Assembly: GCF_964204645.1 (NCBI RefSeq)
Contig: NC_134030.1
Span: 14,198,110-14,262,109 of the forward strand
Direction of reading: 5' to 3'
Source of the DNA: Tubulanus polymorphus
Taxonomy: Eukaryota > Animalia > Nemertea
DNA: 64,000 nt
A program made the translations under genes and the position numbers. Below the pieces are notes generated by a model. That model searched no databases and was not told the DNA's origin. It was given only the letters and a program-made list of their open reading frames with translations. The number at the start of each line of letters is the position of its first letter. Positions within the stretch are counted from its first letter, which is position 1. Shown here piece by piece: positions 1-47,926 of this stretch.

Positions 1-1101
1 TTCCAGAACCATGTAATGAATTATCCTCTGTTGTTCTAAAATCTAACCATAATGCATATTTATTACCGGTATAATAATCAATTTGATTAATGTTACAATT
101 TTCAGATGATTTTACTTTTTCATTCATAAAATGTTTTCTAATTTCTGGCCATTGATCATTCTCATTCCTTGACAAAATATTTTATTTGCTATTCCTTCGA
201 TAGTTATTTCTACTTTTGTTATTTCAGTATTATAATAATTATCAACATTTATTGCACCATTAGTATATGTTGCAATGGTAAAAAATATTAATATACCTTT
301 AATAGATCTTCTTGGGAAGTTAATATTCTCATTAATTATTTCATCATTTGCATTAATAGTTACAGTTTTAAATTTATCAATATAATCATATAATAATGAA
401 AATCCTTGATTGTATTTAGTTTGAATTATACTTGAAATATTTTCATCAGTTACTGTATCATATTCTAAACATATATTCGATAATTTATAACTCATATCTT
501 TATTAACGCTAGATATTACAATTTCATTTACAGGAGCAAATGTTATTTCGAATATAACGTCTTCTTGAATTGCGTATTTATATAAAGGTGCATTGTTATT
601 TATCAATTCAAAGTCTAATGGAATTTTATATTTGCTTCCATATATACTTTTTATCAATTTATCTATAGAATTAGTTAATATTGCATTATATGCTTCTGAT
701 CTTAATTTATTTTGGTTTTCTGATTGGATTCCTTGAAATATCATATTATTTCTATTTTCTTTAGTTAACCATAAATCTTTATAATGCATAAATAAATTAT
801 AATCATCTAATGTGAAAACTGTTTCTGGACCAATCTTTATAGTTAATTTTTTTATCAAATATCTTCCAACATTATCAACAACATAATTATTATTAATACC
901 GATTACTTTTATATCGGCTGATAAATAAATACTATTTGGAACATAAAAAGTATTTTGTGTTAATCGAGGAATTCTAACATATAAAGTTTCATCAGGATTA
1001 ATGTTAGAAGGATTATGTGTAATTATATGATGTGATCTTTTTGCTTTAATAGCATTAGATATTCTATGATTCTTAGAAGGATTGATATAACTCCCACTCA
1101 T
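1..1101 (-). pseudogene. Putative double jelly-roll major capsid protein, frameshifted near 155; continues beyond the window
   Basis: The 325-aa ORF (ITHNPSNINP..LYVRIPRL, NVGRYLIKKLTIKIG, KIPLDFELI, ICLEYDTV, KVEITIEG) resembles the capsid family of invertebrate Polinton-like elements. After GMRM a shifted frame reads DQWPEIRKHFMNEK...KYALWLDFRTTEDNSLHGSG, open to base 1. Confidence 0.7.
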
Positions 1102-1121
1102 TTATTTAACAAAAAAATTAA

Positions 1122-2679
1122 TTATTTATTTTTTATCATGTTTACTAAACCAAAAATAATTGCACTTACAACTGTAATTAAAAATAAAATAATATGTTCA
1201 GCAGCAAAGTTAATAATGTTTCCTGCAGATTTCAATATAAAACCAACAATTGATGCAATAACTCCTGGCAATGCTGCAGCAGATTTCTCATTTGATTTGC
1301 TTGATAGTTCCCATAAATATTTTGCTAATTTCTTTAAACCATCGTGTTTATTTGGAGTAGGAGTAGATTTTAAAGCATTTGATATTGCTAAACCAATTGT
1401 TGTAAATAACATAGTTACAGCTGTTAGAATTGAAAGAATTGTTATTCCTTCTAATTTAAATAATAACTTTATTCTATCTTTCAATGATATTTCAGAATTT
1501 TAGTTTAATCAACAAATCTTTAAAAATAACTTTTTTTCTATTAATATTATAATCATATGATTTTAATAATAACTTAATTTCTTCTTTTTGTAATTCTATG
1601 TTATATTCTAAATCATCTTTTTCTTTTTCTAAATATGCATTTCTTTTTTTAAATTCGATTTCTTCAATAACTTTATTATCTCTATCTAATTTTAGTTGTT
1701 CTATTTCTTTATTTTTATCAGTTAATTCTTTTTCTAAAGTTCTAATTTTAATATCTCTTTTACTTTTTTCATGCGAAATTTTATCAGCTGATTCTTGCAT
1801 ACCTTTAATTTCTCTACGTGTTTGTTCAGGAAATTGTTTTAATTCTTCATCAGTTAAATCAAGTAATCCTTTTTCTAGTAAAGATTGTATTTGATTTATT
1901 CCAGTTTCAGCACCAGCACCAGATGTATCTGGTATACTATTCATCTCTTCTGAATCTCTTAATCTATCAATTTGTTTTTCAAATGTTAATTGTAATTGAC
2001 TTGAATCATTATCAATTTGTTGAATATCTCTTCTCGATGTTTCGGGCGTTGAAGATCTTAATTTATCTAATCGATCTCTATACTCTTCCATTTCTGTTTC
2101 TGAATTTGTATTGATTATTTTTAATAAGTCATCAATTCTTTCACTAAATTCTGTTATATTATCATCTCTTTCTTCTTGTGTAACATCAGTTATTTCATTA
2201 TTAATACTTATTATTTTAATTCTATCTGGTTCTAATTTTCTCAAAGTTGATTCCGCTAATATTTTATTTAGTCTTGTCTTTTGATTAGTGATATCAATAT
2301 AATAATCACCATCCAAATGATAATAATATTTACCTTTAAAAAGTTTTAAATTTTCTGCTAAAAGTTCAGCATCTCTATCACTTATATTATACCCAGATCT
2401 TTCAAATACAGGTTTGAATTTATAAATAATTTTATTATATTCTAAATCTTGTCTTGATAAACCTTGATTTAAATTTTCAGGAGGTATTCTCGATCTAGTT
2501 CTTCTATCAAATTCATCTGTTGATGGGGCTTTAGAACCACTATCTGCTAAATTAGAATTATATGCTGATTCATTACCATCATCGATATTAGTTTCTGCAT
2601 CATTATAATCATCATCAATATATCCTTCATTATAATTTCCCATGCCTTCCATTTCATAATCTTCTCCACCTTCTGCCAT
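1122..2679 (-). pseudogene. Viral coiled-coil protein with C-terminal multi-pass membrane domain; one gene split by a frameshift at ~1495-1505
   Basis: ORF 1492-2679 (acidic N-terminus, long heptad coiled coil) abuts ORF 1122-1484 in another frame. The latter has no ATG or promoter of its own (TTG start) and encodes hydrophobic helices (ALPGVIASIVGFILKSAG). Confidence 0.65.
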
Positions 2680-2694
2680 TTACATAATAAAAAA

Positions 2695-4005
2695 TTAAAA
2701 TTTAAAAAATAATATTCCTCCGATTACAATTCCTATACAAGTTAAAGCTAATTTAGTATTTTCATAGGATTTTTTATCATCATTTAGTTTAATTATATCA
2801 TGTTGAATATTATCAGTTTTTATATTTTCTGATGTATTGTAATCTTTTATTTTAGAATCATTATTTAATTTGATATTATTAGTTTTAGTTTCAGTTGATT
2901 GAATGTGTTTTTTATTTTTTTCACCTTCCAATAATTTTGGAGCAGTGATAATCTTTTTATTTATATCATTTAATCCAAATGAATTATTTATTGTTGCAGT
3001 TTTAATTAGATTATTATAACCAATTAAACCAAATCCCGTCTTTAATACTAAATCATTAGAAATAATAAATAGATTAGGGCCCATACAATAATTTAATCTA
3101 ATATGTGATTTATCTAAATAATTTTGATATCTTACAATGTTTTCTGGAATCGATCCATTTTTATCATTATGAATTGAATCTTCAAATAATACTTTGAATT
3201 GTTTCTGCGCATCGAATGAAGTGTTATCATTTCCAACTATTGGTGATCTTGTTTCAACTTGCGCACCTAAAATACATATCAAATGAGTTCTAATAGATTG
3301 ATTTATTCTTTGTATTCCAGCTATAGTAAAACCTTCACCATTTTCTAAAATGAAATTAACCTAACCATTATTATTATCAATTTTATAATTATGATAAGCC
3401 CCAATTCTATGCATATAATCAATTCTTTTTATTTCATACTCTTCACCAACACCTTGCAATTTACCATGCGCTCTAAAATCGGAATTAATATTTATATTAA
3501 ATTCATTACATATTTTATAAAACTTAGATAGATTAATATTATTATCCAATTCTTTAAAATATTAAGACCCGGGTATAGGACATTCTAATTCATTTAATAT
3601 TATTCTGATTTGAAAATATGTGTGAAATCTAAATATTGTGTGAATTAATTTTAAATCAGAACACTTCAAATTTTTATCTAAGTTATTTAAATGATCATTC
3701 CAACTTATTCCACATCCTGTTGTTGCACAATAAGCAGCAAAATTTAATTGATTCTGCCAATATTTCATATTAGATTTTACTTTATATATATATATATGGT
3801 ATTCATCTCGAGTAAAAGTAACTTCATATGTATTAAATATATTTTCCATTTTAGAAATAAAAAACTGTGATTCAGTAACATAAATTTCTAAATTAGTTAA
3901 TGAATTTAAAACTACATTTCTATATGTAATATTTTTCTTAAAATCTATTGCAGGAATATTATATTTAATTGATTTATTATATTGGAAAGCTTTTGGAAAC
4001 CCCAT
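2695..4005 (-). pseudogene. Conserved Polinton-like-virus protein (~436 codons) with C-terminal TM helix and two premature stops
   Basis: ORFs 3562-4005, 3361-3549 and 2695-3282 are in the same frame, separated by stops at 3562-3564 (TAA) and 3361-3363 (TAG, probably from TGG). Read-through gives WQNQLNFAAYCATTGCG...FRFHTYFQIR...G*VNFILENGEGFT...RINQSIRTHLICILGAQ...FDAQKQF. Confidence 0.75.
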
Positions 4006-4024
4006 TTATATAATTAAAAAATTA

Positions 4025-4456
4025 TTAATTAACTAATTCTTTTAATGATTTATCTTGTTCTTCAACTGTTATATGGCCATTTAAACTTATTATATAATCT
4101 AGTGTATTCTTTAATTTATTAATTTCTTTTATATTAGTTTTAATTTTTTCTTTATTACTTTTAATATTTAATTTTGAACTTATACCAGTTAAAACACTTG
4201 AACTTAATCCTAATACGCCAATTGATATAGCTAAAGGTGTTAATGGACTGAATATTGCTAGAAATGTTATTACAGAACTAATTGTAACCGAACCACTTAT
4301 AATCAAATAATATATAATTTTAGATTTTAAATATTTTTTCTTTTTAACTTTTAAGTCACTTTCAAATTCTAATATTTGTTTTTCTAAATATATTTTTAAT
4401 TTAGTTTTATTTATATCATGAGGAATAATATCAATATTATCAATTTTATCTTCCAT
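4025..4456 (-). CDS. Viral coiled-coil, two-TM-helix protein (143 aa)
   Basis: Intact ORF with TAAATG start; basic coiled-coil segments flank a ~45-aa hydrophobic hairpin. Confidence 0.7.
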   Translation of the reverse strand: MEDKIDNIDIIPHDINKTKLKIYLEKQILEFESDLKVKKKKYLKSKIIYYLIISGSVTISSVITFLAIFSPLTPLAISIGVLGLSSSVLTGISSKLNIKSNKEKIKTNIKEINKLKNTLDYIISLNGHITVEEQDKSLKELVN

Positions 4457-4492
4457 TTATTTAGAAACAAGAAAATTAATTTTAGAAAATTA

Positions 4493-5648
4493 TTTGACGC
4501 CTGCGAAAAAAATGTATAATTTCTGGGCTAAGCTAATGTGGAATTGCAAATTTGAAATCGAAGTTTTAAAAAAATTTGGGGAATGATGAGATTTGGCGAT
4601 TGGGTAGATGATACAGCGGGTCTTCGACTCTAGTAGTGGTTTAAATTTTTTTATTGAAAATTCTCAATAATTGATCGCGAACTTGCGACCGACTTCATTT
4701 ACTTATGCCTCTAAGCTAGTCTGCAACTTCATTGCCTCCATGGTTGAAGAACGAGCTCTTCTGATGTCTGCTTCATCATGACTTCGAGCATATCGTGTGG
4801 CCTAGCCAGCCGGCCCGGGCCACGGGTTTGGCTGTCACTCGATATCCTAGAGTCTTGAGTCTGGGTGGGTTGAAGTAGACATTGTCACTTAAAATAACAT
4901 GCTTATGTTGTTCTGTATGAATTACCCGTGTGTCATGTATGTTGTATTAATTTATTTTAAAATTTGTATTTATTGAATTTGGGAATTATATCCCGAAATT
5001 TCAATGTAATAAGGATCAATAAAGAATTGAATTGAATTGTCACCTAATACACATGCCATCAGAGGACGCGGAGCCGTATATGATAGCTATGCTATTATAA
5101 ATTGCTAATCTCACGAAACCTGCATACTCCTAATATCAAACATATTTTCTAAAACGTTTGAATATTGAAATTATATGTTTACACATTTTCATATTGACCG
5201 CTTGTAGCCGCTGATGAAATTCACGCCGACCCTACACACATCGTAGATAGCTTCGTCATTCCACCGGCATGCCCACGTCAGGGTCTGACTTTTATATCAG
5301 ACTTCCAAATCGTGTATACATCAGCCATTTAACCGAATAATCCGATTTACTTATCATTTCTATTTATGCCTGCCGCTTCTGATATAATCATACATCCTTT
5401 ACTATTACAATACGTCTGCTAATGATATTCAATGCAATATAACATTTCGACGTTCAAATATAGGTCATTATATAATCACAGGAAGCCATTCTACATCTAT
5501 GTCAATAATATTTTGCTAGATAGCTTATTTGTGTACACATAGACCTGTGACGTTTTGCACATCGATTTACGGCTGTCGTTTGTAAAATGACGCTGAATGG
5601 TTAACATTGTTGAGGTTTCATAATGGTAACGTTTTATAAGGCGTCAAA
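4493..5648. mobile_element. 1156-bp insertion into the viral array, probably a non-autonomous DNA transposon
   Basis: GC-richer and non-coding. 10-bp inverted termini TTTGACGCCT (4493-4502) / AGGCGTCAAA (5639-5648). Flanked by GAAAATTA (4485-4492) and AAAAATTA (5649-5656). Contains a LINE-like AATAAA(GAATT)n tail at ~5018-5039. Confidence 0.55.
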
Positions 5649-5656
5649 AAAAATTA

Positions 5657-6070
5657 CTAATTAGTAAATTTATATGCTACAAATATAACAGTTCCACCTA
5701 AAATCCATATTATTTCATATATCTGTTGTTTACTTGGGGTATAATAATCTGATATTGTAGGTTTATGTAGATGTAATTTTGCTTTATTTGTTACCGCGTT
5801 ATATAAACTCATTGCATCATCAACTGATTGAAAATCTCTATGTGAAATCTTCTGATCATATAATTCTTTGTTAATATAATCCATATAGTTTTGTCGTTTT
5901 TCTCTATATATTTCAGCTGCTTTATTGTATTTCTCTAATGCTAAGTTATATCTTTTTTGTTCTGTTAATGAACCATTTTTATCAATATGTTTAAATAAAT
6001 ATCCACCACCAGTAAATGCTAAAGCGTTAACAATTGCCGATCCTATAATAGTTATAATTGCAGAAGCCAT
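5657..6070 (-). CDS. Viral membrane protein (N- and C-terminal hydrophobic helices, central coiled coil; 137 aa)
   Basis: Intact ORF MASAIITIIGSAIVNALAFTGGGYLF...EQKRYNLALEKY with TAAATG start; resembles a small protein family of invertebrate Polinton-like elements. Confidence 0.75.
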   Translation of the reverse strand: MASAIITIIGSAIVNALAFTGGGYLFKHIDKNGSLTEQKRYNLALEKYNKAAEIYREKRQNYMDYINKELYDQKISHRDFQSVDDAMSLYNAVTNKAKLHLHKPTISDYYTPSKQQIYEIIWILGGTVIFVAYKFTN

Positions 6071-6094
6071 TTATTTAGTAAAATAATTACGCAT

Positions 6095-6316
6095 TTATAT
6101 GGGAGGAATATATTTTTGTTTTTCCAAATAATCAATAGTTAAATTAGATAAAGTAACTGCTAATGTTAATTTTAAAATATCATTTATATCAAATCTATCA
6201 ACATTAACACTTCCCATTTTAAATACTTTTTTTAATACCATTGAATAACCAACAGTTCCAACTGATAGTAATGCTCCATTATATAATCCAGTTATTATCC
6301 ACTTATTATCACTCAT
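6095..6316 (-). CDS. Small hydrophobic viral protein (73 aa)
   Basis: Intact ORF with TAAATG start, two hydrophobic segments, C-terminal DYLEKQKYIP. Confidence 0.7.
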   Translation of the reverse strand: MSDNKWIITGLYNGALLSVGTVGYSMVLKKVFKMGSVNVDRFDINDILKLTLAVTLSNLTIDYLEKQKYIPPI

Positions 6317-6673
6317 TTATTTATCAAAAAAATTACTATCATCAAAATATTTAGTTATCTTATTTATGATTAATTCAACATTTATTTCATTACTAGTTTC
6401 ATTTGTATATATTTCATTTATTATTTTTTTAATATCATCGATGATAAAATCTTCATCTAATTCATAAAATCTTAAAGATTCTCTAATTAAATTAGTAATC
6501 TTATCTACATTTAAAGTTTCTTTATCTATTGTTGTTTCATACTGAAATGTCGTTTCATTAGAAAATGTAATATTTTTGATATGTGTAATTACATCATTAA
6601 CGTTAAATTTCATTTCTTTCTCATGTTTAAAATCAAACCCAAAACATATACTCGGCCCAACAGTTATATTCAT
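6317..6673 (-). CDS. Viral hypothetical protein (118 aa)
   Basis: Intact ORF with TAAATG start; its stop codon abuts the next gene's ATG (TAA-ATG). Confidence 0.6.
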   Translation of the reverse strand: MNITVGPSICFGFDFKHEKEMKFNVNDVITHIKNITFSNETTFQYETTIDKETLNVDKITNLIRESLRFYELDEDFIIDDIKKIINEIYTNETSNEINVELIINKITKYFDDSNFFDK

Positions 6674-6693
6674 TTATATAGTGAAAAAAATTA
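6671..6693 (-). promoter_or_regulatory. Representative viral late-type promoter TAATTTTTTTCACTATATAAATG; copies upstream of ATGs at 1101, 2679, 4005, 4456, 6070, 6316, 6673 and 31784(+)
   Basis: A TAATT-led T-run lies 18-23 nt before an ATG embedded in TAAATG at each gene; TAAATG alone occurs at 7446. Confidence 0.7.
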
Positions 6694-7446
6694 CTCTTTA
6701 CATCTTATAACTAATTCATATATCACAGGAAAGTTATTCAAATCAATTAAATAACCATTATGATTTCTTATTTCTAATTTAAAATTATTGAAATGTGGAA
6801 TACAAGGTTTGAAATCACATTCAGTTAAATTATAATTTATTTGAGTTCCAAATTGTTAAACATTTTTTAGCGGTAAAATATTTAGTATACTAGAACTACA
6901 AATCGTTTCTTTAGTTGCTTCGAAAGTTTTTGTAGGCTCGATTAAATTGCAATAAATATAAAAGTGTGTAAAAGGTATTATATTTGAGCTGCCTTCTGCG
7001 TTTCCAGTAACTGTAAGCGGTTTAATTCCTAACATTTTAGCCAGTGGTTTGTTTACCATAAATTTATGTTGTTCATTAGATATCTTTATTCTTATTTTAT
7101 TAGTACTATCAATTTTATTAAATTTAATTTCAAATACAGAAGTGCCCCCGATTTTCAACCGAGCTCTTCTATTAATTTCCTGCGCTAATGATTCTAAATT
7201 ATATAATCCTGGTTTTAAAAATATATGAAACCATTTATCTTTATTTCTCATATAAATCATAAACCCTCTATGTTCAAAAGTTTTATCCGATATATTATAA
7301 AAAGAATTACATAAACTTATATTTACTAATTTTAAATCTACACAATTCTTAAATTCTCTATCTAATTGTACTAGTAAATTATGAGATTTATAATTAGTAA
7401 GTTTTCTTGAATCAACAAATATTCTGTATTCTTTTAATTCTACCAT
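6691..7446 (-). pseudogene. Putative minor capsid (penton, single jelly-roll) protein with one premature stop at 6856-6858
   Basis: Penton-like motifs IFVDSR, LVNISLCNSFYNI, LKPGLYNLESL and FYIYCNLI. In-frame continuation past the stop reads QFGTQINY...FKLEIRNHNGYLIDLNNFPVIYELVIR to the stop at 6691. Confidence 0.7.
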
Positions 7447-7463
7447 TTATTTTACATATTTTC

Positions 7464-7817
7464 TTATTCGAAATCTATTTCATGGTGCCCCTTTTCATTC
7501 TTACCTTTGTATACGAAATAGAAATCTCCAGAACATAATTCTTCTAAGTCTTCACTTGATAATCTATGAAATCTATCCGGTAAATATGTTCTGAATTTAT
7601 ACGTATTTCCTTTTAATCCTTCATATTCTAAGTGTATAACTAATTTATCTCCATAGTTATTAGTAACTGTAACAATATCTGTAATTAGATATTTCTTATG
7701 GATTGTTAATTCTGTTAACTTTTTGAATTTATAATCTACAGATTTTACATTTGTGATATCTTTAATTCTATCTAGAAATAATTTGTTGTTCTCACTGTGC
7801 GCTTGTTTACTCTCCAT
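7464..7817 (-). CDS. Small Polinton-associated protein, possibly OB-fold/ssDNA-binding (117 aa)
   Basis: Pattern FKKLTEL...KKYLITDI..VTNNYGDKLVIHLE...YLPDRF...FVYKG; lies immediately downstream of polB. The function is inferred. Confidence 0.6.
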   Translation of the reverse strand: MESKQAHSENNKLFLDRIKDITNVKSVDYKFKKLTELTIHKKYLITDIVTVTNNYGDKLVIHLEYEGLKGNTYKFRTYLPDRFHRLSSEDLEELCSGDFYFVYKGKNEKGHHEIDFE

Positions 7818-7846
7818 TTTAATAACATATTTTTATTAAAATTTGA

Positions 7847-8305
7847 TTAACACGTTAGAATTCTTTTCATTATCTCGTTCTCTTTTGTTTCTTCTCTTTT
7901 AAATTTTAAGTATTCATCTAAATTACAACCATAAGCATCTGTATGAATTCCATCATCTAAAATATATCTTTTATCATCAAATGGGTTTAGACTTATCTTT
8001 TCAATTTCTTCAATAAACATTTCATAATCTTCAGATCTTAAACATCTCATCTTATGTTTTCTAACTTCTTCATTGAATATACAATTGATGTAATCTTTGA
8101 AATGAATATTCTTTTCTACTACACTTTTGGTTATTCCTTTTAACTTTTTAGCTTCATGTTCTTTAGTTTTATATGAATACATTTTAGATCTAATACCAAT
8201 GAATTCAATCATTTCTTCACCACCTAATTCATCTTTGAATTTACCGGGAACTTTTTTATTATCATTGCTAAACAATTCATGATCTTTAGGATAATTACTG
8301 AAATA
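7847..8305 (-). pseudogene. C-terminal fragment of protein-primed family B DNA polymerase (Polinton-type pPolB), 5'-truncated
   Basis: FSNYPKDHELFSNDNKKVPGKFKDE, EFIGIRSKMYSY, KKLKGITK and SLNPFDDKRYI...GIHT.AYG are characteristic of the Maverick/Polinton PolB C-terminus. Similarity ends at ~8305. Confidence 0.92.
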
Positions 8306-9886
8306 AAAAATGATGTTTTAATGTTTTTAAATCATCAGTTATGTTATCAGTTTTTATCTTTAATATGTAACTGTCGGTATCAAAATATAATATTTCTATA
8401 TGTTTTTCTCCAAAAAGTGGTTGTAATACATTATAATAGAATTCATACATTAGTGTATGAATTCTACAGAGTGTATACAGAGTGTGCTATAATAGCCTGT
8501 ACTCTACAATATACGAAAATATCCACACTTATGTTCTATGGAAACTTTAAGTTGTCAAATTCACTAGTTAAAAGCTTCAAACTTCGACAAAATCTCACCA
8601 GAATGCACAGTCCGGATGTTACGGCTCTTCCTTATGCGATTATTCCTAGGAAAACCAAATGTTCTTGTTCCCAAAAAGAAGTTTTTAGCTCCCGTGCCAA
8701 TGACACGACTCTACAGTCCGCCATGTTCAAAAAACATTTCTAAACCTGATGCTATTAAACCAAAAATGAATGTAACGAATACTTTGTAACTGCACTTAAG
8801 TTTTTGAACTTAATTATGCGGGTAAAGCTACAAAAATGACGTAATCGTGTATACAAGTAAGAAAGGTGGTAGCAAAATGGACTCAAACGAGCACGCCACC
8901 CGATGTTCCTCGAAAATCGAGTTAGTTCAAAAAGTTAACGTCATTATGGTAGCGGGTTTAAGGTATGGTCTGAGTATTTTGATCATGTAAATTATGACAG
9001 GCTAGTGCTTTTCACCGAATTAATATGTCAGTCTTGATTATGTTTCAATTTGGACTTATAAAGGGAAACTCAATCGCTCATCACGATTCCTTGAATAAAG
9101 ACAGATTACCTGGTAATATTCCAATTTATACCGACGCCGAGTGGCCAGGCTTGCAACTTAATAGGGGAATTGCAAACCACGCAATACCCCAACAAAAAAA
9201 CAACAAAAGTAAGTTCACGCCATGGATAAGGTGTATATATTTTATGTACAGATAGTTTATTGAGTTACAGAATATGATCATCACTCGATCGATTATTTTT
9301 GAAGTGAGGAAAAAGACGACAGGAACAATCTACAGTTTAAGGGAATTAACTCATATGCCGTCCCGTGCTGCTAACTATTGATAAAACTTGAAAGTAACAT
9401 CTGATTTTTAATTTGAATTGACTGCGTGACTTTTCAAACACGAACAATGAGTTTCCTGGCCATTTCGTGATGTCTTATTACTTCTGGCGAAAATCGAGTA
9501 CTTTCCAGCGATGAATTATGTAAGTCTTGAAATCATAGGTCGAGCCAGTCGATTTACTCTGCCAAAAGCTAACGAATTTGCCTCCATTCACTCGATTATA
9601 GACGTTCTTGTCATTTGATAAGCTGTTTTAAAGGGCTTGATAGAATAAAGTACTATTTTATATATGATTACGGTTTACGTGAACTTGCTTGAAATTTGTT
9701 AACAAAAAGTTTCCTTGTACTTCTCGAAAGTTTGATTACAATTGTTGTTCTTCAGTTGTGTCTGAAACAAAGCATAATCCACCAAACGTTTACGTGAGGC
9801 TGTATGTACATCCTTCCCAAGTGGCGCTGATCTGTATTGTCGGGAATTATTCCTACCATAAGTCGGCGTAGTACTAGTTTCGGGGA

Positions 9887-17197: not shown

Positions 17198-17405
17198 TAA
17201 CGAATAAAACCCACAGTTACTTCTGTAAAAACAGTTTATTGCCTTACAGTTTCGAGGTTCAAACTAAACCTCATCATCAGAGTAACAAAACTATAATGAA
17301 TTTATTGTATTTTTTGTTCCTCTGATGATGAGGCTTAGTTTGAACCTCGAAACTGCGAGGCAATAAACTGTTTTTTTCAGAAGTAACCGTGGGTTTTATT
17401 CGTTA
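17198..17405. repeat. Inverted repeat (~90-bp arms) of Penelope-like terminal repeat, each arm with a minimal hammerhead core
   Basis: 17198-17290 is the near-perfect reverse complement of 17312-17405; each arm has CTGATGA-T-GAGG..CCTC-GAAAC followed by AATAAA. Confidence 0.8.
17242..17283 (-). ncRNA. Minimal type I hammerhead ribozyme
   Basis: Minus strand reads act CTGATGA T GAGGTT tagtttg AACCTC GAAA CT GTA agg: catalytic core, 6-bp stem II, GUA triplet. Confidence 0.6.
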
Positions 17406-20208: not shown

Positions 20209-22260
20209 GCCCTTGGCGTATTAATCTGTACTGTTATTCGCCGCCTGAACTGCTTAACCAGAAAACGGAGTTTATTACAAATTTTCTGTTAAAAAAAACA
20301 ACCCTCTCATTTTCAGTGGTAATTTTGATACTGATCGTCTAGAATACGTGGGGGTTTGAAAAGTTCCTTCGTGGAGGTTTTTTTCCCCGGTTACTGGAAT
20401 TGTGTGATGCGGTTCATCGTCCACTCGGCCAGTAGTAGTCGGGAATACTTTATCATTCGACGATTATCTATTTTACTTCTGGAAAATACCGAAGATTTAA
20501 CTTACTTGAATTGTCGACAATTGCTACGATTTAAAATTGTCGACCTATTTTATCTTGACGTTTAAATCATTGGAATTATCGACAAGTATACGTACAGTAG
20601 GCCTAAACGAAAACGTGTCTTTAAGAAAGAAAATCTGTTGTCATGGACCACGAGCTCCGCCGTGGAGAAAGAAACTAAAAATCAAACATCAAAGCGAAAT
20701 CAAATTTATATCAGATCACCTGCCCGAGAGAAATGAAAAAAAACTGTGTAAGGCGAATAAAACAACAAAAGAATTCCCATCTAGTGGAGGCTTGGTGAGA
20801 AATTCTGCTGGCTATTAGAAGAGTGGAATTTTCCAATCTAGCAAAGTAATGTGATACTTTTGTCTTCTCATTTTCGAGCAATTTTCCGGGAACAATGACC
20901 GTAATTTGACTCCGAAACTACGACCTTGAAATCGAGTGAACTTCAAACAAATTCACTACGTTTGAACCGACCAAGGAATTTCGATTGTAGATTGGTCCTT
21001 TTTGCATAGAACTCCTCATTTGTTAGCCTCTATATCATATTCATTGCGCTGCGACTGACCAGCTACGGCGTTATGCTTTAACAATGTGACGTCAACAACT
21101 AGCGGTGACGTTTCAGTGTTGACTTGATATTACTTTACATGATCACGTTTGATAAATAAACCCATCCTTTCGAGACCTTAGAATGGCGTGTATTCATCAT
21201 ATTACATGCAATGAATTGAGTGCCGGTTTAACACTCGGAATTTGTTTACAGTCGTAATTAACCACTTAGAGGTAAAGACACAGACTATATTCTGATTCAA
21301 TTTAACCATACATCAAATCGACGCCCGAATCGAGGCTTTTACGTTAATGGCGTATGTTACACCTAACCACATTCAGTCCCTCGGCGGCACCTCCTACTGA
21401 GATTACCATGCGGAGATTTCTGCGAGTTTTTATTAGTGTTTTATCTAATTAAGATTGATCATTTATGTAATTATCGATACAGCATTGATAATGTTATTAA
21501 ACCTCGGGAGAAGGAGATAATATTGTGTGATTATAGACGAATCAAATAAACTTGTCACCGATATTATTTCACAGAGCCTACGTTACGGTTTTTATTCCGC
21601 CAATAGTAGTTGGGACAAATATTTCGCATTTAAATGTGTTGCATTTTGTCTAATTCATCTAGCTATACTATATGGGAACTGGCAATTTTCAAACCAGATC
21701 ACAGTCATACATTATACTACTGTATGCTATAAGGCCAAAATGATAAGCAAATGTGGAAAGTGCTTTGTCATAGATAAGCTATCGTTCGATGTTTATTTTC
21801 ATTATGATCATGGTTATTATTACAGGGAAGGGTATTCGTATATACATAGATAAATATGTTTTATGTTTGTTCTGACGACAAACCCTAATTGTAATTGTGT
21901 CAATCGAAAATGGCTTTCTTGACCCATAGAAAAAGATAAAGTAACGATATATGTGTGCGTGTGTGTCTTGGTCGCTTTTATTTGATCTACAGAGACGGAA
22001 ATATTCGCCCAAACTCACCACCGTGGAATATCATCACCGATATCTATACATAATGTGTCGAACTGATATTTATGATAGTTGAAATACGGTCTGATAAGAC
22101 ATTGAAACTGAAACGAGAATTGAAAGTGGAAACTAGAATTCTGGAACTGAAAAAACATCAAGAACTCAAGCTATTTTGGAATTTCAGAAGTTCGTGTGGA
22201 ACTATTAAGATTCCGCAATTCATTGCAGATCTTGTTTTGTGATACTACATAGAATACGTG

Positions 22261-24060
22261 ATGAAGTTGATTCAAATATTGTTCCCATTCGTGGCATTAT
22301 TTTCAGTGAATAGTGAGTACCAAAACTGTCCGCCGGAATGTGATTGCTATGACAAAACATTTGACTGTGTGGCACCGGAAAGTGATATTGTAAGCTCTGC
22401 TGACATTTTGGATCAGTGCCCTCAGGATGTAATAGGGATTTCCCTTTACAGTTTTAAATTCAACTTTAGCGAAAGTCTAGTTTTTTCGCGATTTCACCAG
22501 CTGGAATATTTGTACCTGGAAAACTGCAATTTGAATCGGTCTGAGGCTTTGCTTACATCAAAAAGCTTCGTCAACTTCGGTTACGTCTGTGACAGCTCGG
22601 AACAAATTTGCCAAACCGAAGAACAAGTAAAGACAATAATAAATCAGCTACCTCCACAGATAAGTTCATTACGGATCAGTAGCTGGAGGGTAAAATCGAT
22701 AAATGATTTAAACCTTTCTAGGTTTACTCAACTTATCGTATTGGATTTGAGCAAAAATTCCTTATCCACAATCGGTGCTACAAATGTATTTTTCGGCATG
22801 GGAAAACTCAGAGCTTTGCAGCTCAGTTTTAACAAACTGACATCGCTAATGCCGGGTGTGTTCAATGGACTGAGGGCATTAGGATCTCTGGATCTATCCC
22901 ACAACGAGATATACTCGTTGGAAGATGGCGTATTCGCACATTTGAACCAATTAACCGAACTTCGGCTAAAAGGAAATAACCTGACGAATGTATCGTCGAC
23001 CAATCTCACAGGATTGTCACCTTTGAGTTTGGTAACGATTGACTTTTCAGATAATAACCATTTCATGCCGAACTGGGATATGTTCAAAAATCTTCAACGG
23101 CTATCAATAATTTCATTATCTAATTGTTTCACGGATGTTAACCCCTTGCCCACAAACCTTTTTACCGGTTTACATAACATTGCCGCTCTGCACCTTGCCG
23201 GAAATAGACTTACGGCCATTCCGGCCAGTGTTCAGCTGATGGGGTCGCAGTTTCGCACGCTAGATATATCTCATAATTTACTTACTGCAATCAACATCAA
23301 GCTCAACACTCAAATTCCGTCGACCAAAAGCGTCACTTTAGATTTTAGTGATAACCGTATATCCAGAGTAGATAGCGACTCGTTCATAGGCAGTTTTCAC
23401 AAGATCAGTGCAGACGTGGATTTGAGACGAAATCTTCTCCAAGAAATCGATATGAGCGCCATAAAAAAATTAGGTAGAAACGTGCAATTAGATGCGCGTG
23501 ACAACCCGATCATATGTGGAGCCAATTTGTGCGCGTTAAAATGGTGGTCTAGTCAGAAAATGGGTGGCCCCATACTGGTTGACTGTATAAAACAACAGAA
23601 ACGTCGAAAAAGAGTTGACATGTCCGACCTGACCGACTCACAACTTGGATGTTTATACCCGACATTCGTAAAGTGCATCAACGATAAAGTGCGATTACAT
23701 GAAAAAGGCCGGCTTCATTTTACTGCAAAATCTTCCCCGGCGTTTATCGAATTCACCGACGTTCTGATAATTCGAGGAAATAAAACCGAAATGGTCGTAG
23801 AAAGATTAGAAAAATCCAGAATAAGAATTTCGATGTATTTCGACATCGTTTGGGGTGATTTTATCAGTTCGCTAGGTGAAGTCACTGTTGCCACTGCGAA
23901 AGTAACGGCATCTACTGAAATCGAAAATATCACATACAGTGCCACATGTACAAAATCGCTGTTATTTTCGTCCGTTGCAGCTAAGATGACTTGGGATTAT
24001 ACGATGTCGATTTTGATGACCGTTCTGATTATTAACGAAATATCAGAATATGGATCGTAG
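22261..24060 (+). CDS. Secreted/cell-surface leucine-rich-repeat protein (signal peptide, LRRNT, >10 LRRs, LRRCT, hydrophobic C-terminus), single coding exon, 599 aa
   Basis: Signal MKLIQILFPFVALFSVNS; LRRNT CPPECDC; repeats such as LIVLDLSKNSL, LRALQLSFNKL, LGSLDLSHNEI, LTELRLKGNNL; LRRCT-like DNPIICGANLCALKWW..C; C-terminal MSILMTVLII. Confidence 0.92.
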   Translation: MKLIQILFPFVALFSVNSEYQNCPPECDCYDKTFDCVAPESDIVSSADILDQCPQDVIGISLYSFKFNFSESLVFSRFHQLEYLYLENCNLNRSEALLTSKSFVNFGYVCDSSEQICQTEEQVKTIINQLPPQISSLRISSWRVKSINDLNLSRFTQLIVLDLSKNSLSTIGATNVFFGMGKLRALQLSFNKLTSLMPGVFNGLRALGSLDLSHNEIYSLEDGVFAHLNQLTELRLKGNNLTNVSSTNLTGLSPLSLVTIDFSDNNHFMPNWDMFKNLQRLSIISLSNCFTDVNPLPTNLFTGLHNIAALHLAGNRLTAIPASVQLMGSQFRTLDISHNLLTAINIKLNTQIPSTKSVTLDFSDNRISRVDSDSFIGSFHKISADVDLRRNLLQEIDMSAIKKLGRNVQLDARDNPIICGANLCALKWWSSQKMGGPILVDCIKQQKRRKRVDMSDLTDSQLGCLYPTFVKCINDKVRLHEKGRLHFTAKSSPAFIEFTDVLIIRGNKTEMVVERLEKSRIRISMYFDIVWGDFISSLGEVTVATAKVTASTEIENITYSATCTKSLLFSSVAAKMTWDYTMSILMTVLIINEISEYGS

Positions 24061-29462: not shown

Positions 29463-30689
29463 GAGTGACTAAGCCTAAGATTTATAAGTCACTTTAAGAA
29501 ATAATAACAAATATAGCACGAATACGCATAAAATGAATGTTTCGGCAGTTAGTTACATTTTGGATTTAAAAGAATTTTTTGACCATCCAGCAATTGATTG
29601 AAATGTTGAAAAGTAAAATTTGGTGACTACACATAAATAGTATGATTTGGAACTGTTTGTCAAGGTTTGTCAACATAATAGAATCATATAATGTTTGTAA
29701 AGTGTCGTATGATACTTTCATTTTCATGGCCAGCTGGTCATTAAAATCCGTGAATTCCGATGTTGAATTAATTAGCAAATCTGGGTTGGTTCCGCGACAT
29801 TTTCTAGCAATTCTATACGGATAAATGTCCAACCGGGGCATGTACGTTAACTATCAATGTTGCTTTTTCAAATTGGATATTTTTACGTTAGTGCCGTATC
29901 TGATATGCCAAAAAGGGCTGTCCACAAAAGACGTCCACATAGAATTTCGACCCCCTTCCCCATGTCCATCGAACAAAAAGCCTATTAGGGACATCAGACA
30001 TCCAGTCGTGCAAAAGATTTTTTTTTCATTCACTTAATCATTTGTTGTAAACCCGGGACTACATTTGTAATTCTATGAATCATCTTGAAAACATGGAAAT
30101 AGAAAATGTTTACATCTTACATATATTCAATTTTGAATTGGCGAATTCATGTACAAAATCGCTGAGATTGTTAATATTCTTAATTTTTAATATGCTAGGT
30201 CAAGCAAAAATAGGACCAATGTTATAGATAATTGAATTTGCTGGCCAAACGGACAGCATGCATTTTTTAGAATTATTTATGGATGTCGTTTAGTATCAGA
30301 AGTTCTTTTTCAAACAACATTACGGAATTGAAGAAACGGATCTATAAGGATAAATACGATACGTTATGAATAACAAGATAAAGATGTAAAACGCGTACAC
30401 AACGAGACACTTTTTTACATATAGATTTAATTTACCCGTGTCATGACAGTTTTTCGTCAGTAAATAGGTTGTATTTTCGAAGGGTCGAGTGAGTAAAAAA
30501 TAAAAATAAATTCTCGCACGCTCGAATTTATTTTTATTTTTCACTCACGCACCCCTTCAACCTTTGGCCTGAACCAACACTTTCCTATCTACTCTTATAA
30601 TTTCATGTTTTAAACGTGAAAGTAAAAACTGTTAGCATAACAATCTAGAAAAATAAGATCAAATATAGATTTCGAATAATAAAAAATCA

Positions 30690-30945
30690 ATTTTCAATAT
30701 AGAAAGTCTGAGTAAAGTGTGAGTGAAATAATTCATATTTAAAACAGTGAATATTTATATTTATATGTGTTAAATTCTTATTTTCAAACATAAAAAGTGT
30801 GAGTAAAGTGTGAGTGAAATAATTTATATTTAAAACAGTGAATATTTATATTTATATGTGTTAAATTCTTATTTTTAAACATATAAAATGTGAGTAAGGT
30901 GTGAGTGAAATAATTTATATCTAAAACAGTGAATATTTATATTTT
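30690..30945. repeat. 91-bp subterminal tandem repeat (~2.7 copies)
   Basis: GAGTAA(A/G)GTGTGAGTGAAATAATT recurs at 30710, 30801 and 30892. Confidence 0.95.
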
Positions 30946-30946
30946 A

Positions 30947-31612
30947 ATGAGTTTTGATAAAAGTTTTGTTATAAAAATTAAGAAAGAAGAAGAACCTGAA
31001 TTCAAAATCGAAATAAAAGAAACCAATAAATTATTTTCACAGTTTAACATTAAAATTTATATCTCAGCAACAAACTTAGTGTATGAGAGACAATATAAAA
31101 TTGATAATATTACTGGAATTAATCAAATATTATTAAATGTAACATATTTGATTACTGAACTAATTGACACTTTTGATTATGGCGCTAAAAATCCTAAAAT
31201 ATTCAATACAGTTTTAAATTGTAAAGGTAATTTAGATGAAAACATAATAAATATACTTCAAACTCCTTTTAATGAAAGAGATAGTGATTAAATACTTTCT
31301 AAAGGTTGCAATGATTTGATTAACGTAAGAATTGAAAAAAGACAATTATATTATTTCAATTTTGATAATAAACAAATTATCTATAATGAAAATTCATCAA
31401 ATATTGGAATTCAATGTGAATCAGTTAATAATAATTCTTATAAAGATATCGGAATTCAATGTTATTTAGATGATGAATTTAGAAAGTTTAATACTAATGA
31501 GAAAGTGTATTGTGATTGTGGAGGTAAATATTTAAGATCACATAAATCAAAACATTATCAAACAGTTAAACATATCGAATATGAACAGAATAATAAATAT
31601 ATACTGAAATAA
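30947..31612 (+). pseudogene. Element protein with C-terminal C2H2-like zinc finger; one premature stop at 31289-31291
   Basis: ORFs 30929-31291 and 31316-31612 are in the same frame with 8 sense codons between them. The C-terminus EKVYCDCGGKYLRSHKSKHYQTVKH is a Zn-finger type common in Polintons and large DNA viruses. Confidence 0.65.
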
Positions 31613-31783
31613 GATTAAGCTGTATGTTTCAAATAAAAAGTAGTTAAAGCATTGAGAAATTAATTAATGAATAACTGTTAGGTAGTAAGTTTAATTGTTA
31701 TTTGATTTGAAACATATAAAAGTTTAATATTTCTAAAATATTAAATATTTATCAATTTATTAATTTTTTTCTTAAATAAATAA

Positions 31784-32005
31784 ATGTATGATTTCAACAT
31801 TCCAACCGGAAGTAGTGATTTGAAACATTATTTAGTTGCTGGAGGTTTAATATTGGCTGCGCTTTACTTTTACTATGAGAATATTAGTAAAGATCTAATG
31901 GATGAAAATATGAAATTGAGTAAAAAGTTAAAGAAGTTAAATGGAAACAATCACAGAAAAAATAACAATAAAAAAGTTAATGTAGAAAATGATTTAGAGG
32001 ATTAA
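31784..32005 (+). CDS. Small single-TM protein (73 aa)
   Basis: Preceded by TAATTTTTTTCTTAAATAAATAAATG; TM segment YLVAGGLILAALYFYY followed by a basic coiled coil. Confidence 0.65.
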   Translation: MYDFNIPTGSSDLKHYLVAGGLILAALYFYYENISKDLMDENMKLSKKLKKLNGNNHRKNNNKKVNVENDLED

Positions 32006-32046
32006 AACAGCATCTTTAATTTATTTTATATATTTTAACTACAAAA

Positions 32047-32352
32047 ATGAGTGAGAGTAAGGTTTTAGAAATATTACATCTAATATATAAAAATCAACAG
32101 AATATTAAATCAATTATTATGCTTACAGCATTAGTTTCATTTTCATTTTGTAGTATAAAACAGTTGTTAGAATTCTATGATAATTGCAAAATTAGATACG
32201 CTGAATTAAAAGATAATATCAATTATCTATCAGATAGGATTAATAATATTAAGTGTTGTGAAATATGTAATAAAAGATATAAAAATGAGAAATCATTAAA
32301 AACTCAGAGATATATTCATGAGCTTAATAATAAACTGTATAATTCAAATTAA
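32047..32352 (+). CDS. Small protein with hydrophobic segment and degenerate C2H2 zinc finger (101 aa)
   Basis: CEICNKRYKNEKSLKTQRYIH, with the first His replaced by Gln. Confidence 0.55.
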   Translation: MSESKVLEILHLIYKNQQNIKSIIMLTALVSFSFCSIKQLLEFYDNCKIRYAELKDNINYLSDRINNIKCCEICNKRYKNEKSLKTQRYIHELNNKLYNSN

Positions 32353-33741
32353 GTTTGAAAATAAAAAAGAATAATCTTTTTATAGAAATATTGTATAATT
32401 TATAATTGTATGAATGGTACGAGTATACGAATGATACGAATGGTACGAGTCTTCCAATTCGTCCACTCGTCCACTCATACACATTCTAAATTCTATAATA
32501 TTTCAAATAATTATTTTATTATAGAGTAATACAAGAGTGATACTAAGTTATTCAAGGTAAATTCTCGCACGCTCGAATTTATTTGTATTTTTTACTCACT
32601 AACCCCTTCAACCTTTGACCTGAACCAACACTTTCCTATTTACTTTCGTCAATTATAGCACCCATTTATAGTACGGACACGTTCAATATCTTGTTCACCG
32701 ATAAAAATCTTGGTATATCCAACAAAGGTTTTACCAAATATATAAAAGATTTACTTATATTGATTGATTAAGGGCAGAGCTGAGCAACCTTAAGTTCAGT
32801 ATGGACAACTCGAGATTGGGGGCTATGAGGAAAATATATAGGCGTGTGGATGTTTAATCACATCGATAATTTTCTTGACTATTTTCGCAGAAATCCTATG
32901 AATCCCAATACCTCTATGTTTGAAGAGAATTTTTGACTATATCATAAAATTCTTATTTGTTGGAAAAGCGTAGAAGTTCTCATAGTTGTTCGTCCTAAGT
33001 CATTGTTACGGTGGTTTATATAAAAGCTGTGATCAAATTTGCTAAGTGATGTCCAACATCAACAAAAAAGGAATTGAACACATTTGCGATGTTGAAATTA
33101 CCACTAACAGTTGAGTTATTTAACTTAGAACAACTTGGTTATTTTTCTTTAACAAAGAAACTTCCAATAACTGTTTATAGAATGATCCACGAGGCTTTTT
33201 TATTATTCTTGAAACGAAATAACTAAGTATCGTGATAATCTTTGGTATGGTAGTACCGTATAATAGTTTTAAATAGCAGAATAATAACCGCTTGCATTCT
33301 AGATAACGGGTCTTGAAAGCAATTATTGAATTATTCGCCCATTTTGATTATATAAGCGATGTTTACATTCATTAGAGTTTAACAAGGGTTAGCTTATTGG
33401 TTTTTGCATTCGAGCTTTTAATAAAAGGAAAAACATGCTCTAAATGAGTAATTAGAAATAACAATAAAGCATGCGACCTTTGTGGGTCATGATCATTAAA
33501 GCCGACCAATCTCATTCTATTAAGCTTCTATATGCTTCACTTAAAACTTTTTTACTTTTTATCTTATCATGATTATCCTCTATGCAATACAATCAGATAA
33601 AGTAAATGAATTGGCATTATTTTGTCCCTTTCAATTCAGATAAATTGTATCTTTTTTTTAAATCAGGGTATGAATGTTTAGGCCAGCTGTAGGCTGAGCC
33701 AATTACTATACGAATGGAGCAAATTTAAATGACATGGTTTC

Positions 33742-46904: not shown

Positions 46905-47926
46905 TCATTATCTTTAGAGCTAAGGCTCTTTGACTGTGCAACTGAGCATATGTTCATGCAAATCATTCATTAGAGCATTATCCATTCTCCAACCCCTAAG
47001 AAGCTGAACTTTGAAAGAGTGCCTCGTTAAAATTCATATGAGCTTTTTCGCAAAAATCTGATCTAAAAAATATCTGTTTTTAAAAGCCAATCAGAAAGCA
47101 AAGACTCCTCTATGATTGGCCTAGCCACAGAGATCAGCAGGTACTCACGTGAACCCGCAGTATTGACGTCTACCGTTTTACTTCCGAGTTATATTTTGAG
47201 ATCTAAAATTATATTGCAATATCGATTTCTGTGAAATCTTTAGTTAAGTTGTTTTTGGGAGGAGTAATTTGTACCACACTAAATATCATTGACATTTGTG
47301 CATAAATAGCTTTTTCTTAAATCGGATGGATGACCTTGATATGCTAATTAGCCATGTGCTCAAACTGCAAATTCAATCAAATTTTATTCTGCAAGAAAAA
47401 TATCAAATCCAATTCAATTTTGCCCTATTGCACAAGGTAAAACAGCAAATCCAATTCAATTGAGCAAATTTCAGAAAATTCTATTCTATTCCGCATTCAA
47501 ATCACTAAGACCAAGGGAAAGGATTTATCTGAGGTGTTTGTCCCTGCCAGCTCCAGTCGCTGTCTGTGCTACTTATGAAAGTACGATTGAATTGTGTAAA
47601 TTATTTGCCTGGGTTTGACTAGTCTATCGAGCTGGGAGTGTATTTGGACAAATTTAACCCACATAATGCATCATTCGCCATCTTATGAAAAGCTGACAGG
47701 CTGGTCATAGCGCCCCTTTTGGTTCTTGTTATTATTACAATTTTTATTTCTTTTCCACTTTCCAGCCAAAAATTTTTCATTAAATCTTACTCCTCTCAGA
47801 TTCGACCACTAACAGCTTAAAACGTAGTTTTTTATTTCTGTCAGATATATTAACCAGCGTCTGACCATTTCGATTCTGCGTATTGTAATTCTCGTGATTA
47901 TTAACAGCTTATCAATGTAATTGTCA

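What the first reader, a model, noticed from the sequence alone, without database searches (positions are those of the whole stretch)
30459..30593. Palindromic termini in flip/flop configuration, a hairpin-telomere signature
Seen: the left 135 bp fold back on themselves. AGTAAATAGG pairs with CCTATCTACT, and a ~35-bp stem (30479-30513 / 30524-30558) closes the loop TCGCACGCTC. At the right end, 87 bp (32558-32644) are a DIRECT repeat of 30507-30593. Read inward from each end, the stems therefore match as TIRs but the loops are reverse complements (TCGCACGCTC vs GAGCGTGCGA). The inner flanks are inverted again (TACTCTTATAAT vs ATTATAGAGTA). Known: flip/flop isomers arise when imperfect terminal hairpins are resolved (poxviruses, ASFV, parvoviruses), whereas canonical Polintons have simple TIRs and protein priming. 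Inference: the free form may have hairpin ends or replicate by hairpin transfer, with integration at the AG/CT palindrome edges. I do not recognise this combination as described for Polintons.
Basis: partly seen in the sequence, partly recalled or inferred. Interest (0 to 1): 0.86.

Follow-up and report, generated by a model that had tools for sequence, protein, structure and literature searches.

The report
Mini-Polinton with one inside-out end
A 2.2-kb inserted piece of DNA, likely a shrunken Polinton (virus-like transposon), has a fold-back left end whose loop and inner half are repeated at the right end, likely through a one-off copying slip rather than poxvirus-style hairpin ends.

Summary
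The structure is real: 30459-32644 is a 2,186-bp AT-rich insertion with a 6-bp target duplication (TTCGTC) and AG..CT ends. The left 135 nt fold back (z = -7.5). 32558-32644 is a 93% direct repeat of 30507-30593, so the loop is inverted between the ends. The claimed inverted inner flanks are at chance level (242 of 1000 shuffles).

It is likely a non-autonomous Polinton derivative. One gene start fits the motif of a Polinton clade also present at window 1-8340. The loop holds CTCGCACG, which points inward at 6 of 48 ends of related contigs and never outward, so only the right end is anomalous.

Hairpin-telomere flip/flop is not shown. The right end lacks its inner arm, and its junction is single-copy in the one run found. 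Contig flanks lean to one orientation (17 vs 2 in the 6 of 56 rows shown). The PolB closest to the window's fragment keeps a terminal-protein fold and vOTU protease.

Likeliest route: priming at the palindrome's inner edge plus one template switch, then integration. The PolB's endonuclease VII-like insert keeps family-wide flip/flop alive at about 0.2.

The parts
30453..30458 (+). Left copy of 6-bp target site duplication TTCGTC
30459..32644 (.). 2,186-bp insertion, 23% GC against about 37% in the flanks, AG..CT ends, likely non-autonomous Polinton derivative
   Evidence: 1,607 contigs of run X1 lie on 30200-32900, with summed depth mostly in the thousands inside against 32-240 in the flanks
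30459..30513 (+). Outer arm of left palindrome (55 nt); its distal part (30459-30469) is covered only by this locus's own contig
30514..30523 (+). Asymmetric 10-nt loop; overlaps CTCGCACG (30513-30520), a motif found in the terminal regions of distant Polintons, pointing inward
30524..30593 (+). Inner arm of left palindrome (70 nt); its inner edge is an internal, outward-facing copy of the terminus (AGTAGATAGG on the minus strand)
30680..30952 (+). Three tandem 91-bp subterminal repeats
30947..31612 (+). ORF A, 221 codons, broken by an in-frame stop at 31289-31291; C-terminal zinc-finger-like motif; N-terminal part without relatives
31784..32005 (+). ORF C, 73 aa, no family; starts with the T-run/TAAATG motif of the Polinton clade
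32047..32352 (+). ORF D, 101 aa, weak C2H2 zinc finger (Pfam E 0.005; Atlas scores under 0.9, a lead only)
32385..32504 (.). Internal imperfect palindrome; relatives L002 and L004 have such palindromes between convergent genes, so this likely marks where the parent element went on
32558..32644 (+). Right end: 7 nt of stem, loop and 70-nt arm; direct repeat of 30507-30593 (81 of 87); loop motif points outward
   Evidence: a single-copy contig of run X1 carries this junction (record 7, inferred from its coordinates and 5 differences)
32645..32650 (+). Right copy of target site duplication TTCGTC
124..8317 (-). Context: fragment of a Polinton (double jelly-roll capsid gene cut short at 325 aa against 414-415 aa in relatives, PolB C-terminal piece, ten other ORFs); no terminus in the window

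Best explanation
The 2,186-bp insertion, bounded by a 6-bp target duplication and carrying a direct copy of its left loop and inner arm at its right end, is likely a non-autonomous deletion derivative of a Polinton whose odd right end likely arose once, by a copying slip. Shown: TSD, AG..CT ends, left palindrome, right-end direct repeat, broken and incomplete gene set. Inferred: the parent's terminal repeat is a long stem with an asymmetric loop, so its inner edge is a second copy of the terminus facing outward. The protein-primed PolB would start at that inner edge (30593) on the displaced strand, copy the 70-nt arm, the loop and 7 nt of the other arm, stall as the new strand folds back, and switch to a site about 2 kb inside the same template (32557). 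It would then copy on to the true left end. That single event gives the direct repeat, the inverted loop, the missing inner arm on the right and the loss of all core genes. Both ends still read AGTA, so the family's rve integrase, supplied in trans, would insert it with a 6-bp duplication. Use of the same inside edge by the integrase on a tandem or circular copy, followed by a deletion, gives the same product in two steps.
For: The right end stops exactly at the inner AG/CT edge and begins 7 nt before the loop, with no arm-like sequence before it. The loop motif CTCGCACG points inward at 6 of 48 ends of protein-selected contigs of 8 kb or more and outward at none (0.23 expected each); the left end agrees and the right end is the exception. 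All 4 related contigs with end-to-end repeats have them inverted; L104 has hairpins in its repeats with the same loop read inward at both ends. In run X1 the right junction lies on a single-copy contig (depth 34.6 against 32-36 for flanks; record 7, record 8). Of the 6 loose-end rows shown, long unique sequence lies upstream of the forward loop in 17 contigs and downstream in 2. PolB P0125, 83% identical to the window's PolB piece, has an N-terminal little-finger/PAD-like fold (Z 8.7, rmsd 2.9, 105 aligned) with Gly-Ser-Gly between the last helix and strand, followed by an OTU fold (Z 6.5, rmsd 3.7, 107 aligned) with Cys and His invariant in 40 of 40 sequences. This is the terminal protein plus vOTU layout of PMC11161782. 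ORF C's start outscores all 1,997 host ATGs on the clade's gene-start matrix. Relatives encode rve integrase, A32 ATPase and pPolB.
Against: No full-length parent with this terminus was found: 0 DNA matches of the loop 22-mer in viral and metagenome contigs, and no ORF of the element has a relative in the 104 loci then held. The Polinton link therefore rests on cis-features only, and ORF A's start does not fit the matrix. The 17-versus-2 count covers 6 of 56 rows, and unique upstream sequence need not be host DNA, as this locus's own right end shows. The three arms differ star-like (31 of 35 in each pair), so the right arm cannot be shown to be copied from the left inner arm. The switch point cannot be checked for microhomology because the parent's sequence is lost. 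Internal priming by a Polinton PolB is untested.
Confidence: 0.5

Rival explanations
1. Family-wide flip/flop: the free form has covalently closed or folded hairpin ends, or replicates by hairpin transfer. Junctions would be cut by the endonuclease VII-like domain inserted in PolB, opened ends of either isomer would be integrated, and this copy later lost its right inner arm and interior.
For: The geometry is that of flip and flop. The palindrome abuts the TSD. The closest PolBs carry an Endonuclease_7-like insert (E 2e-4 to 1e-2) with a C-x2-C...DHxH...G...RG...CN motif in 16 of 20 aligned sequences; the namesake T4 enzyme cuts cruciforms (recalled). Palindromes next to TSDs with a hairpin-priming model are proposed for endogenous virophages and PLVs (bioRxiv 10.64898/2026.07.28.741278). 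The hairpin core is the deepest part of the element in run X1.
Against: The nuclease insert is also in L025, which has ordinary inverted repeats, and in insect Mavericks (PMC5803895); PMC11161782 reads such inserts as homing endonuclease remnants. The terminal protein and vOTU are intact, whereas the preprint links palindromes to non-pPolB elements. The right end has no inner arm and no significant D-like flank. No T-run/TAAAT resolution-site-like motif flanks either hairpin (vaccinia site as printed in PMC8956199). Flanks lean 17 to 2 to one orientation in the rows shown.
Confidence: 0.2
2. Passive loop inversion plus an ordinary internal deletion: the right end was a normal inverted repeat whose 10-nt loop flipped by template switching or recombination between near-identical arms, and a separate deletion removed the interior and the inner arm.
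For: In run X1 most depth pairs at the positions where this copy's stem is mismatched (table 3), so the family stem is near perfect and the loop is the main asymmetry. Loop inversions by template switching are documented (PMC8794818, 69 cases in rRNA). The two outer ends share the same 10-mer and two stem positions against the left inner arm.
Against: It needs two events, one of which happens to end 7 nt from the loop. The documented inverted loops were mostly 4 nt and at most 7-8 nt. Two other stem positions group the right arm with the left inner arm.
Confidence: 0.2
3. Not a Polinton derivative or not a true locus: another integrase- or transposase-moved element (foldback type, LTR-like direct repeats), a nested insertion, or an assembly error at a palindrome.
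For: No core gene is in the element and no protein links it to Polintons. Run X1 may be the sample the window came from, so it is not independent.
Against: Both junctions lie on contigs of run X1 with 0 differences at flank depth (records 1 and 8). There is a perfect TSD. One contig joins the two flanks across the element (30431 to 32669, shorter side 25 nt; weak). The gene-start motif, composition (tetranucleotide correlation 0.96-0.97 with the Polinton fragment against 0.89-0.92 with host DNA) and loop motif all point to Polintons.
Confidence: 0.1

Closest known systems
Polintons/Mavericks (adintoviruses), animal group with pPolB2-like polymerase
   Same: 6-bp TSD (5-8 bp given in PMC10748475), AG..CT ends (recalled), low GC, gene-start and loop motifs shared with relatives that encode rve integrase, A32 ATPase, capsid and pPolB.
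   Different: 2.2 kb, no core genes, no 100-1,500-bp inverted repeat; ends related by an 87-bp direct repeat with an inverted loop.
Endogenous virophages and PLVs of Halocafeteria seosinensis with palindromes in the TIRs next to the TSD (bioRxiv 10.64898/2026.07.28.741278)
   Same: Terminal palindrome adjacent to a TSD in an rve-integrated element; hairpin priming proposed, with accidental annealing as the authors' alternative.
   Different: Those are protist elements mostly without pPolB. This one is tied to an animal-type clade whose PolB keeps a terminal protein. The preprint has no occurrence of 'flip'.
Poxvirus flip/flop hairpin telomeres (A22 resolvase, concatemer resolution site)
   Same: Imperfect palindrome whose two readings are inverted complements; subterminal tandem repeats (PMC8956199).
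   Different: Integrated with a TSD; no resolution-site-like motif beside the hairpin; no A22/RuvC hit in 68 ORFs of relatives (low sensitivity); only one end is a full palindrome.
Parvovirus/AAV rolling-hairpin ends (recalled)
   Same: An extended palindrome of similar length (135 nt) with flip at one end and flop at the other.
   Different: No HUH Rep hit in 68 ORFs of relatives; the D-like flank is at chance level; the right palindrome is incomplete.
Template-switch loop inversions in hairpins (PMC8794818)
   Same: An asymmetric loop between near-perfect arms found in inverted form.
   Different: Described for short rRNA loops; here the inversion coincides with a deletion breakpoint and an element end.

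Membership tests
Polinton/Maverick | 5-8-bp target site duplication | tested here: met
   TTCGTC on both sides; range from PMC10748475
Polinton/Maverick | AG..CT termini (recalled) | tested here: met
   AGTAAATAGG at both ends read inward
Polinton/Maverick | Terminal inverted repeats of 100-1,500 bp | tested here: not met
   10 bp perfect, then a 52-nt stretch at 81%; the long repeat is direct
Polinton/Maverick | Encodes pPolB and rve integrase (and capsid genes) | tested here: not met
   Only three small ORFs, none a core gene; so filed as a likely non-autonomous derivative, not as a Polinton
Polinton/Maverick (presumed parent clade) | pPolB with terminal-protein domain and active vOTU protease | tested here: met
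   Tested on P0125, the closest full-length relative of the window's PolB piece, not on a proven parent
Poxvirus/ASFV-type hairpin telomere | Covalently closed hairpin ends on the free genome | not testable with these tools
   Only assembled contigs of one run were available
Poxvirus/ASFV-type hairpin telomere | Both isomers at each end across molecules or copies | tested here: inconclusive
   17 versus 2 contigs in 6 of 56 rows shown lean to one orientation; host and interior flanks cannot be told apart
Poxvirus/ASFV-type hairpin telomere | Resolution site (T-run, spacer, TAAAT) beside the hairpin | tested here: not met
   0 matches of T{5,}N{6,10}YAAAW on either strand of 30459-30680 and 32450-32644
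Poxvirus/ASFV-type hairpin telomere | Junction resolvase | tested here: inconclusive
   No A22/RuvC-type hit in 68 ORFs, most of which have no Pfam hit at all; endonuclease VII-like insert in PolB, activity untested
Parvovirus-type rolling hairpin | HUH Rep/NS1 nickase | tested here: inconclusive
   No hit in 68 ORFs of six relatives at E 0.001; the true parent is not in hand
Parvovirus-type rolling hairpin | Complete palindrome plus shared inner (D-like) sequence at both ends | tested here: not met
   Right end lacks the inner arm; inner match at chance level

The most novel reading that the evidence does not exclude
An animal Polinton clade combines protein priming with a hairpin step: its palindromic termini exist as flip and flop isomers generated by the endonuclease VII-like domain of its own PolB (or by a poxvirus-like helper, whose late-promoter-like TAAATG starts the clade's genes carry), and either isomer is integrated. 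This would also answer how the terminal protein is removed before integration.
Probability: 0.18. Interest if true: 0.82.

Novelty: new variant of a known kind. Interest (0 to 1): 0.4.

Why it matters
If the best reading holds, the locus is a fossil of how protein-primed Polintons spawn mini-elements. It would show that the inner edge of a terminal palindrome works as an origin or integrase end, and that about 70-90 bp ending in AGTA suffice for integration. It also places terminal palindromes, so far reported mainly for protist elements without pPolB, in an animal-type pPolB clade, and points to a conserved CTCGCACG cis-element. If flip/flop is family-wide, Polinton replication would join adenovirus-type priming to poxvirus- or parvovirus-type hairpin handling. 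It would give the PolB nuclease insert a job and bear on the open question of how the terminal protein is removed before integration (stated as unclear in PMC11161782). One count of loop orientations in the assembly decides between these.

Tried and rejected
No whole genome is held, so termini could not be counted in the assembly.

DNA scans for the loop: 0 in viral contigs and 0 in metagenome contigs. A 17-mer gave 3 loci, rejected as chance because none continues into the stem. A gapped pattern gave 30 loci, none with capsid, PolB or integrase hits and at most 14 of 30 paired bases beyond the match.

Protein searches with the element's ORFs: ORF A found no relative, only zinc-finger-motif matches (36 hits), one weak giant-virus locus and an Atlas score of 0.75. 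Capsid queries found nothing in viral contigs.

Similarity of the 91-bp repeat to the arm: not significant (160 of 1000 shuffles). Rfam: 0 matches in 29500-33500. Earlier findings of the scan: nothing in three look-ups. The PDB sequence search with the PolB alignment gave only weak zinc-finger and Hpy99I matches.

The joint 30819 to 32558 (one contig, shorter side 21 nt) was not used: it may be a mis-split arm. Low depth over 30574-30629 and 32293-32565 was not read as absence. Endonuclease VII in PolB was considered as specific support for hairpin resolution and rejected as such, since it is general to this PolB group.

An earlier count said 7 of 10 gene starts; recounted it is 8 of 10.

Full report
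OBSERVATION. The sequence shows an AT-rich block from 30459 to 32644 (23% GC, flanks about 37%), bounded by TTCGTC on both sides and by a perfect 10-bp inverted repeat AGTAAATAGG. The left 135 nt form a palindrome with a 55-nt outer arm, a 10-nt loop and a 70-nt inner arm. The proximal 35 bp pair at 31 positions and the fold is far beyond shuffles (z = -7.5, 0 of 200). Two details fail. The inner-flank match is at chance level (242 of 1000 shuffles). The right end has only 7 nt of an inner arm, and the preceding 48 nt are unlike either arm.

ANATOMY. Inside lie three 91-bp tandem repeats, ORF A (broken by an in-frame stop, zinc-finger-like C-terminus), ORF C and ORF D (weak C2H2 finger). An internal palindrome at 32385-32504 (0 of 1000 shuffles) is of the kind that relatives L002 and L004 carry between convergent genes. 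No polymerase, integrase or capsid gene is present. The element looks like the first 2.1 kb of a larger element joined to a terminal loop and arm.

IS IT REAL AND REPEATED? No assembly is held. One run, X1, holds 48% of the sampled words and may be the source sample. Laid on 30200-32900, 1,607 contigs match. Both host junctions lie on contigs with 0 differences at depth 32-36, while the interior sums mostly to thousands or tens of thousands. The tool warns that this is no copy number, but it marks a high-copy, diverged family (609 of 1,607 contigs are 90-95% alike). One contig joins the flanks across the element (shorter side 25 nt; weak). On 30430-30669, 296 contigs match. The stem-loop core is deepest, and 30459-30469 is covered only by the locus's own contig. 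Most depth pairs where this copy's stem is mismatched, so the family stem is near perfect and the loop is the main asymmetry. Record 7 (147 nt, depth 34.6, 5 differences over 30507-30586) matches the locus's own right end by coordinates and difference count, so that junction is single-copy in this run. Six of 56 loose-end rows are shown. Loose sequence over 100 nt lies upstream of the forward loop in 17 contigs and downstream in 2; 23 further contigs have short downstream loose ends (medians 8-36 nt). If long unique sequence is host DNA, one orientation dominates, against the even split expected of terminal resolution. But 50 rows are hidden, and this locus's own right end has unique interior sequence on the upstream side, so the test is inconclusive.

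LINK TO POLINTONS. Window 124-8317 is a Polinton fragment. Its 325-aa ORF has 87 relatives and folds like double jelly-roll capsids (best Foldseek E 2.7e-7, PBCV-1). Contig L009 has hits to all 10 ORFs tested between the capsid and PolB genes and encodes rve-chromo integrase and A32 ATPase. Genes of this clade start with TAAATG (30 of 33 ORFs in five close loci, 14 of 17 in five middle loci, 5 of 119 in seven distant GC-richer loci, where many ORFs are spurious; 8 of 10 in the window). On a matrix from those 33 starts, ORF C scores above all 1,997 host ATGs and among the window's Polinton starts, ORF D is exceeded or matched by 5 of 1,997, and ORF A does not fit. The loop overlaps CTCGCACG, which lies near the ends of distant relatives L023, L025, L039 and L071: 6 of 48 ends of the 24 protein-selected contigs of 8 kb or more, all pointing inward, none outward, 0.23 expected. 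Most of those 48 contig ends are not element ends. In the element the left motif points inward and the right one outward. Four of the 24 contigs have end-to-end repeats, all inverted; L104, a distant integrase match, has hairpins inside its repeats with the same loop read inward at both ends. No protein or long DNA match ties the 2.2-kb element to any of 104 loci, so the link is by cis-features.

The window's PolB piece finds full-length proteins at 82-84% identity. A model of a 362-residue N-terminal stretch of P0125 (pLDDT 83) matches the little-finger/PAD domain of Y-family polymerases (no Foldseek match under E 0.001, best 3.5e-3; VIA Z 8.7, rmsd 2.9, 105 aligned) and then OTU proteases (Z 6.5, rmsd 3.7, 107 aligned). 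Gly-Ser-Gly, Cys and His are invariant in 40 of 40 sequences. This is the terminal-protein plus vOTU layout described in PMC11161782 (sections 6 and 8 read; passages). Protein priming is thus likely retained. The same PolBs carry an endonuclease VII-like insert (motif in 16 of 20), a candidate junction cutter. But L025 with ordinary repeats has it too, it is annotated in insect Mavericks (PMC5803895, passages), and HNH or VSR inserts are described for pPolB2 (PMC10748475, passages). No HUH Rep, RuvC/A22, protelomerase or tyrosine recombinase family was hit in 68 ORFs of six relatives, though most ORFs have no Pfam hit at all. No resolution-site-like motif flanks the hairpins.

MECHANISM. The inner edge of the left palindrome is an outward-facing copy of the terminus. 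A strand primed there would copy arm, loop and 7 nt of the far arm, fold on itself, and could resume about 2 kb inside the same template. The product has exactly the observed layout and two AGTA ends for the integrase. This is inference, chosen because one event explains four features (0.5). Passive loop inversion plus deletion needs two events but uses a documented process (PMC8794818, passages; 0.2). True flip/flop remains possible (0.2) because the family-wide count is missing and a nuclease is at hand. Arm differences do not decide: each pair of the three arms agrees at 31 of 35. Another element type or an artefact is least likely (0.1).

WHAT IS KNOWN. Palindromes inside the TIRs and next to the TSD, with a hairpin-priming model, are reported for endogenous virophages and PLVs of Halocafeteria, preferentially in elements without pPolB (bioRxiv 10.64898/2026.07.28.741278, passages only; its supplements were not seen and may bear on loop orientation). 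Searches listed no paper describing flip/flop ends for Polintons; the library lacks most subscription papers, and Kapitonov and Jurka 2006 was not read (recalled only). PMC8502044 has no occurrence of hairpin or palindrome. PMC11296320 discusses PLV ends related to entomopoxvirus terminal repeats (passages). Poxvirus facts are from PMC8956199 (passages).

VERDICT. A real and tidy oddity: a likely mini-Polinton with a palindromic left end and an inside-out right end. It is a new variant of a known kind, most likely a single rearrangement, with a one-in-five chance of exposing an undescribed hairpin step in Polinton replication. Interest 0.4.

Noticed in passing
window 124-8317; L002-L009, L016, L017: Genes of this AT-rich Polinton clade nearly all start with TAAATG, often after a T-run (30 of 33; 18 of 33 with T-run). 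This resembles the poxvirus late promoter initiator (recalled; vaccinia resolution site) and could mean dependence on a poxvirus-like helper for transcription. A paper search for TAAATG with polinton listed 3 papers, none on this by title.
   Followed up: partly
L023 339 and 13196, L025 126 and 14388, L039 12776, L071 8772: CTCGCACGAG near the ends of Polintons only 33-36% alike in capsid protein to the window's, always pointing inward: a candidate conserved origin or promoter element.
   Followed up: partly
L023 134-192: Perfect 24-bp hairpin with an 11-nt asymmetric loop inside the left terminal region of a near-complete Polinton; the matching right end is not in the contig.
   Followed up: partly
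L020 9970-13596: In the place of PolB, a 1,209-aa protein with AAA_30/AAA_19 helicase-type hits and no DNA_pol_B_2 hit: possible replicase replacement.
   Followed up: no
P0133: Related PolB (1,693 aa) with an intein and LAGLIDADG domain.
   Followed up: no
L009 10343-10981; L023 944-2218: Deoxynucleoside kinase in a close Polinton relative; T7 tail-fibre-like repeats in another.
   Followed up: no
window about 4500-5650: A GC-richer stretch of about 1.1 kb interrupts the Polinton fragment between two ORFs that are neighbours in L009: likely a later insertion.
   Followed up: no
window 22243-24060 (+): Single open frame of 605 codons with signal-peptide-like start, leucine-rich repeats and a hydrophobic end: a host LRR surface protein.
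   Followed up: no
window 17198-17405, 47926-48754, 50047-51262: Inverted-repeat pairs typical of MITEs or other DNA transposons.
   Followed up: no
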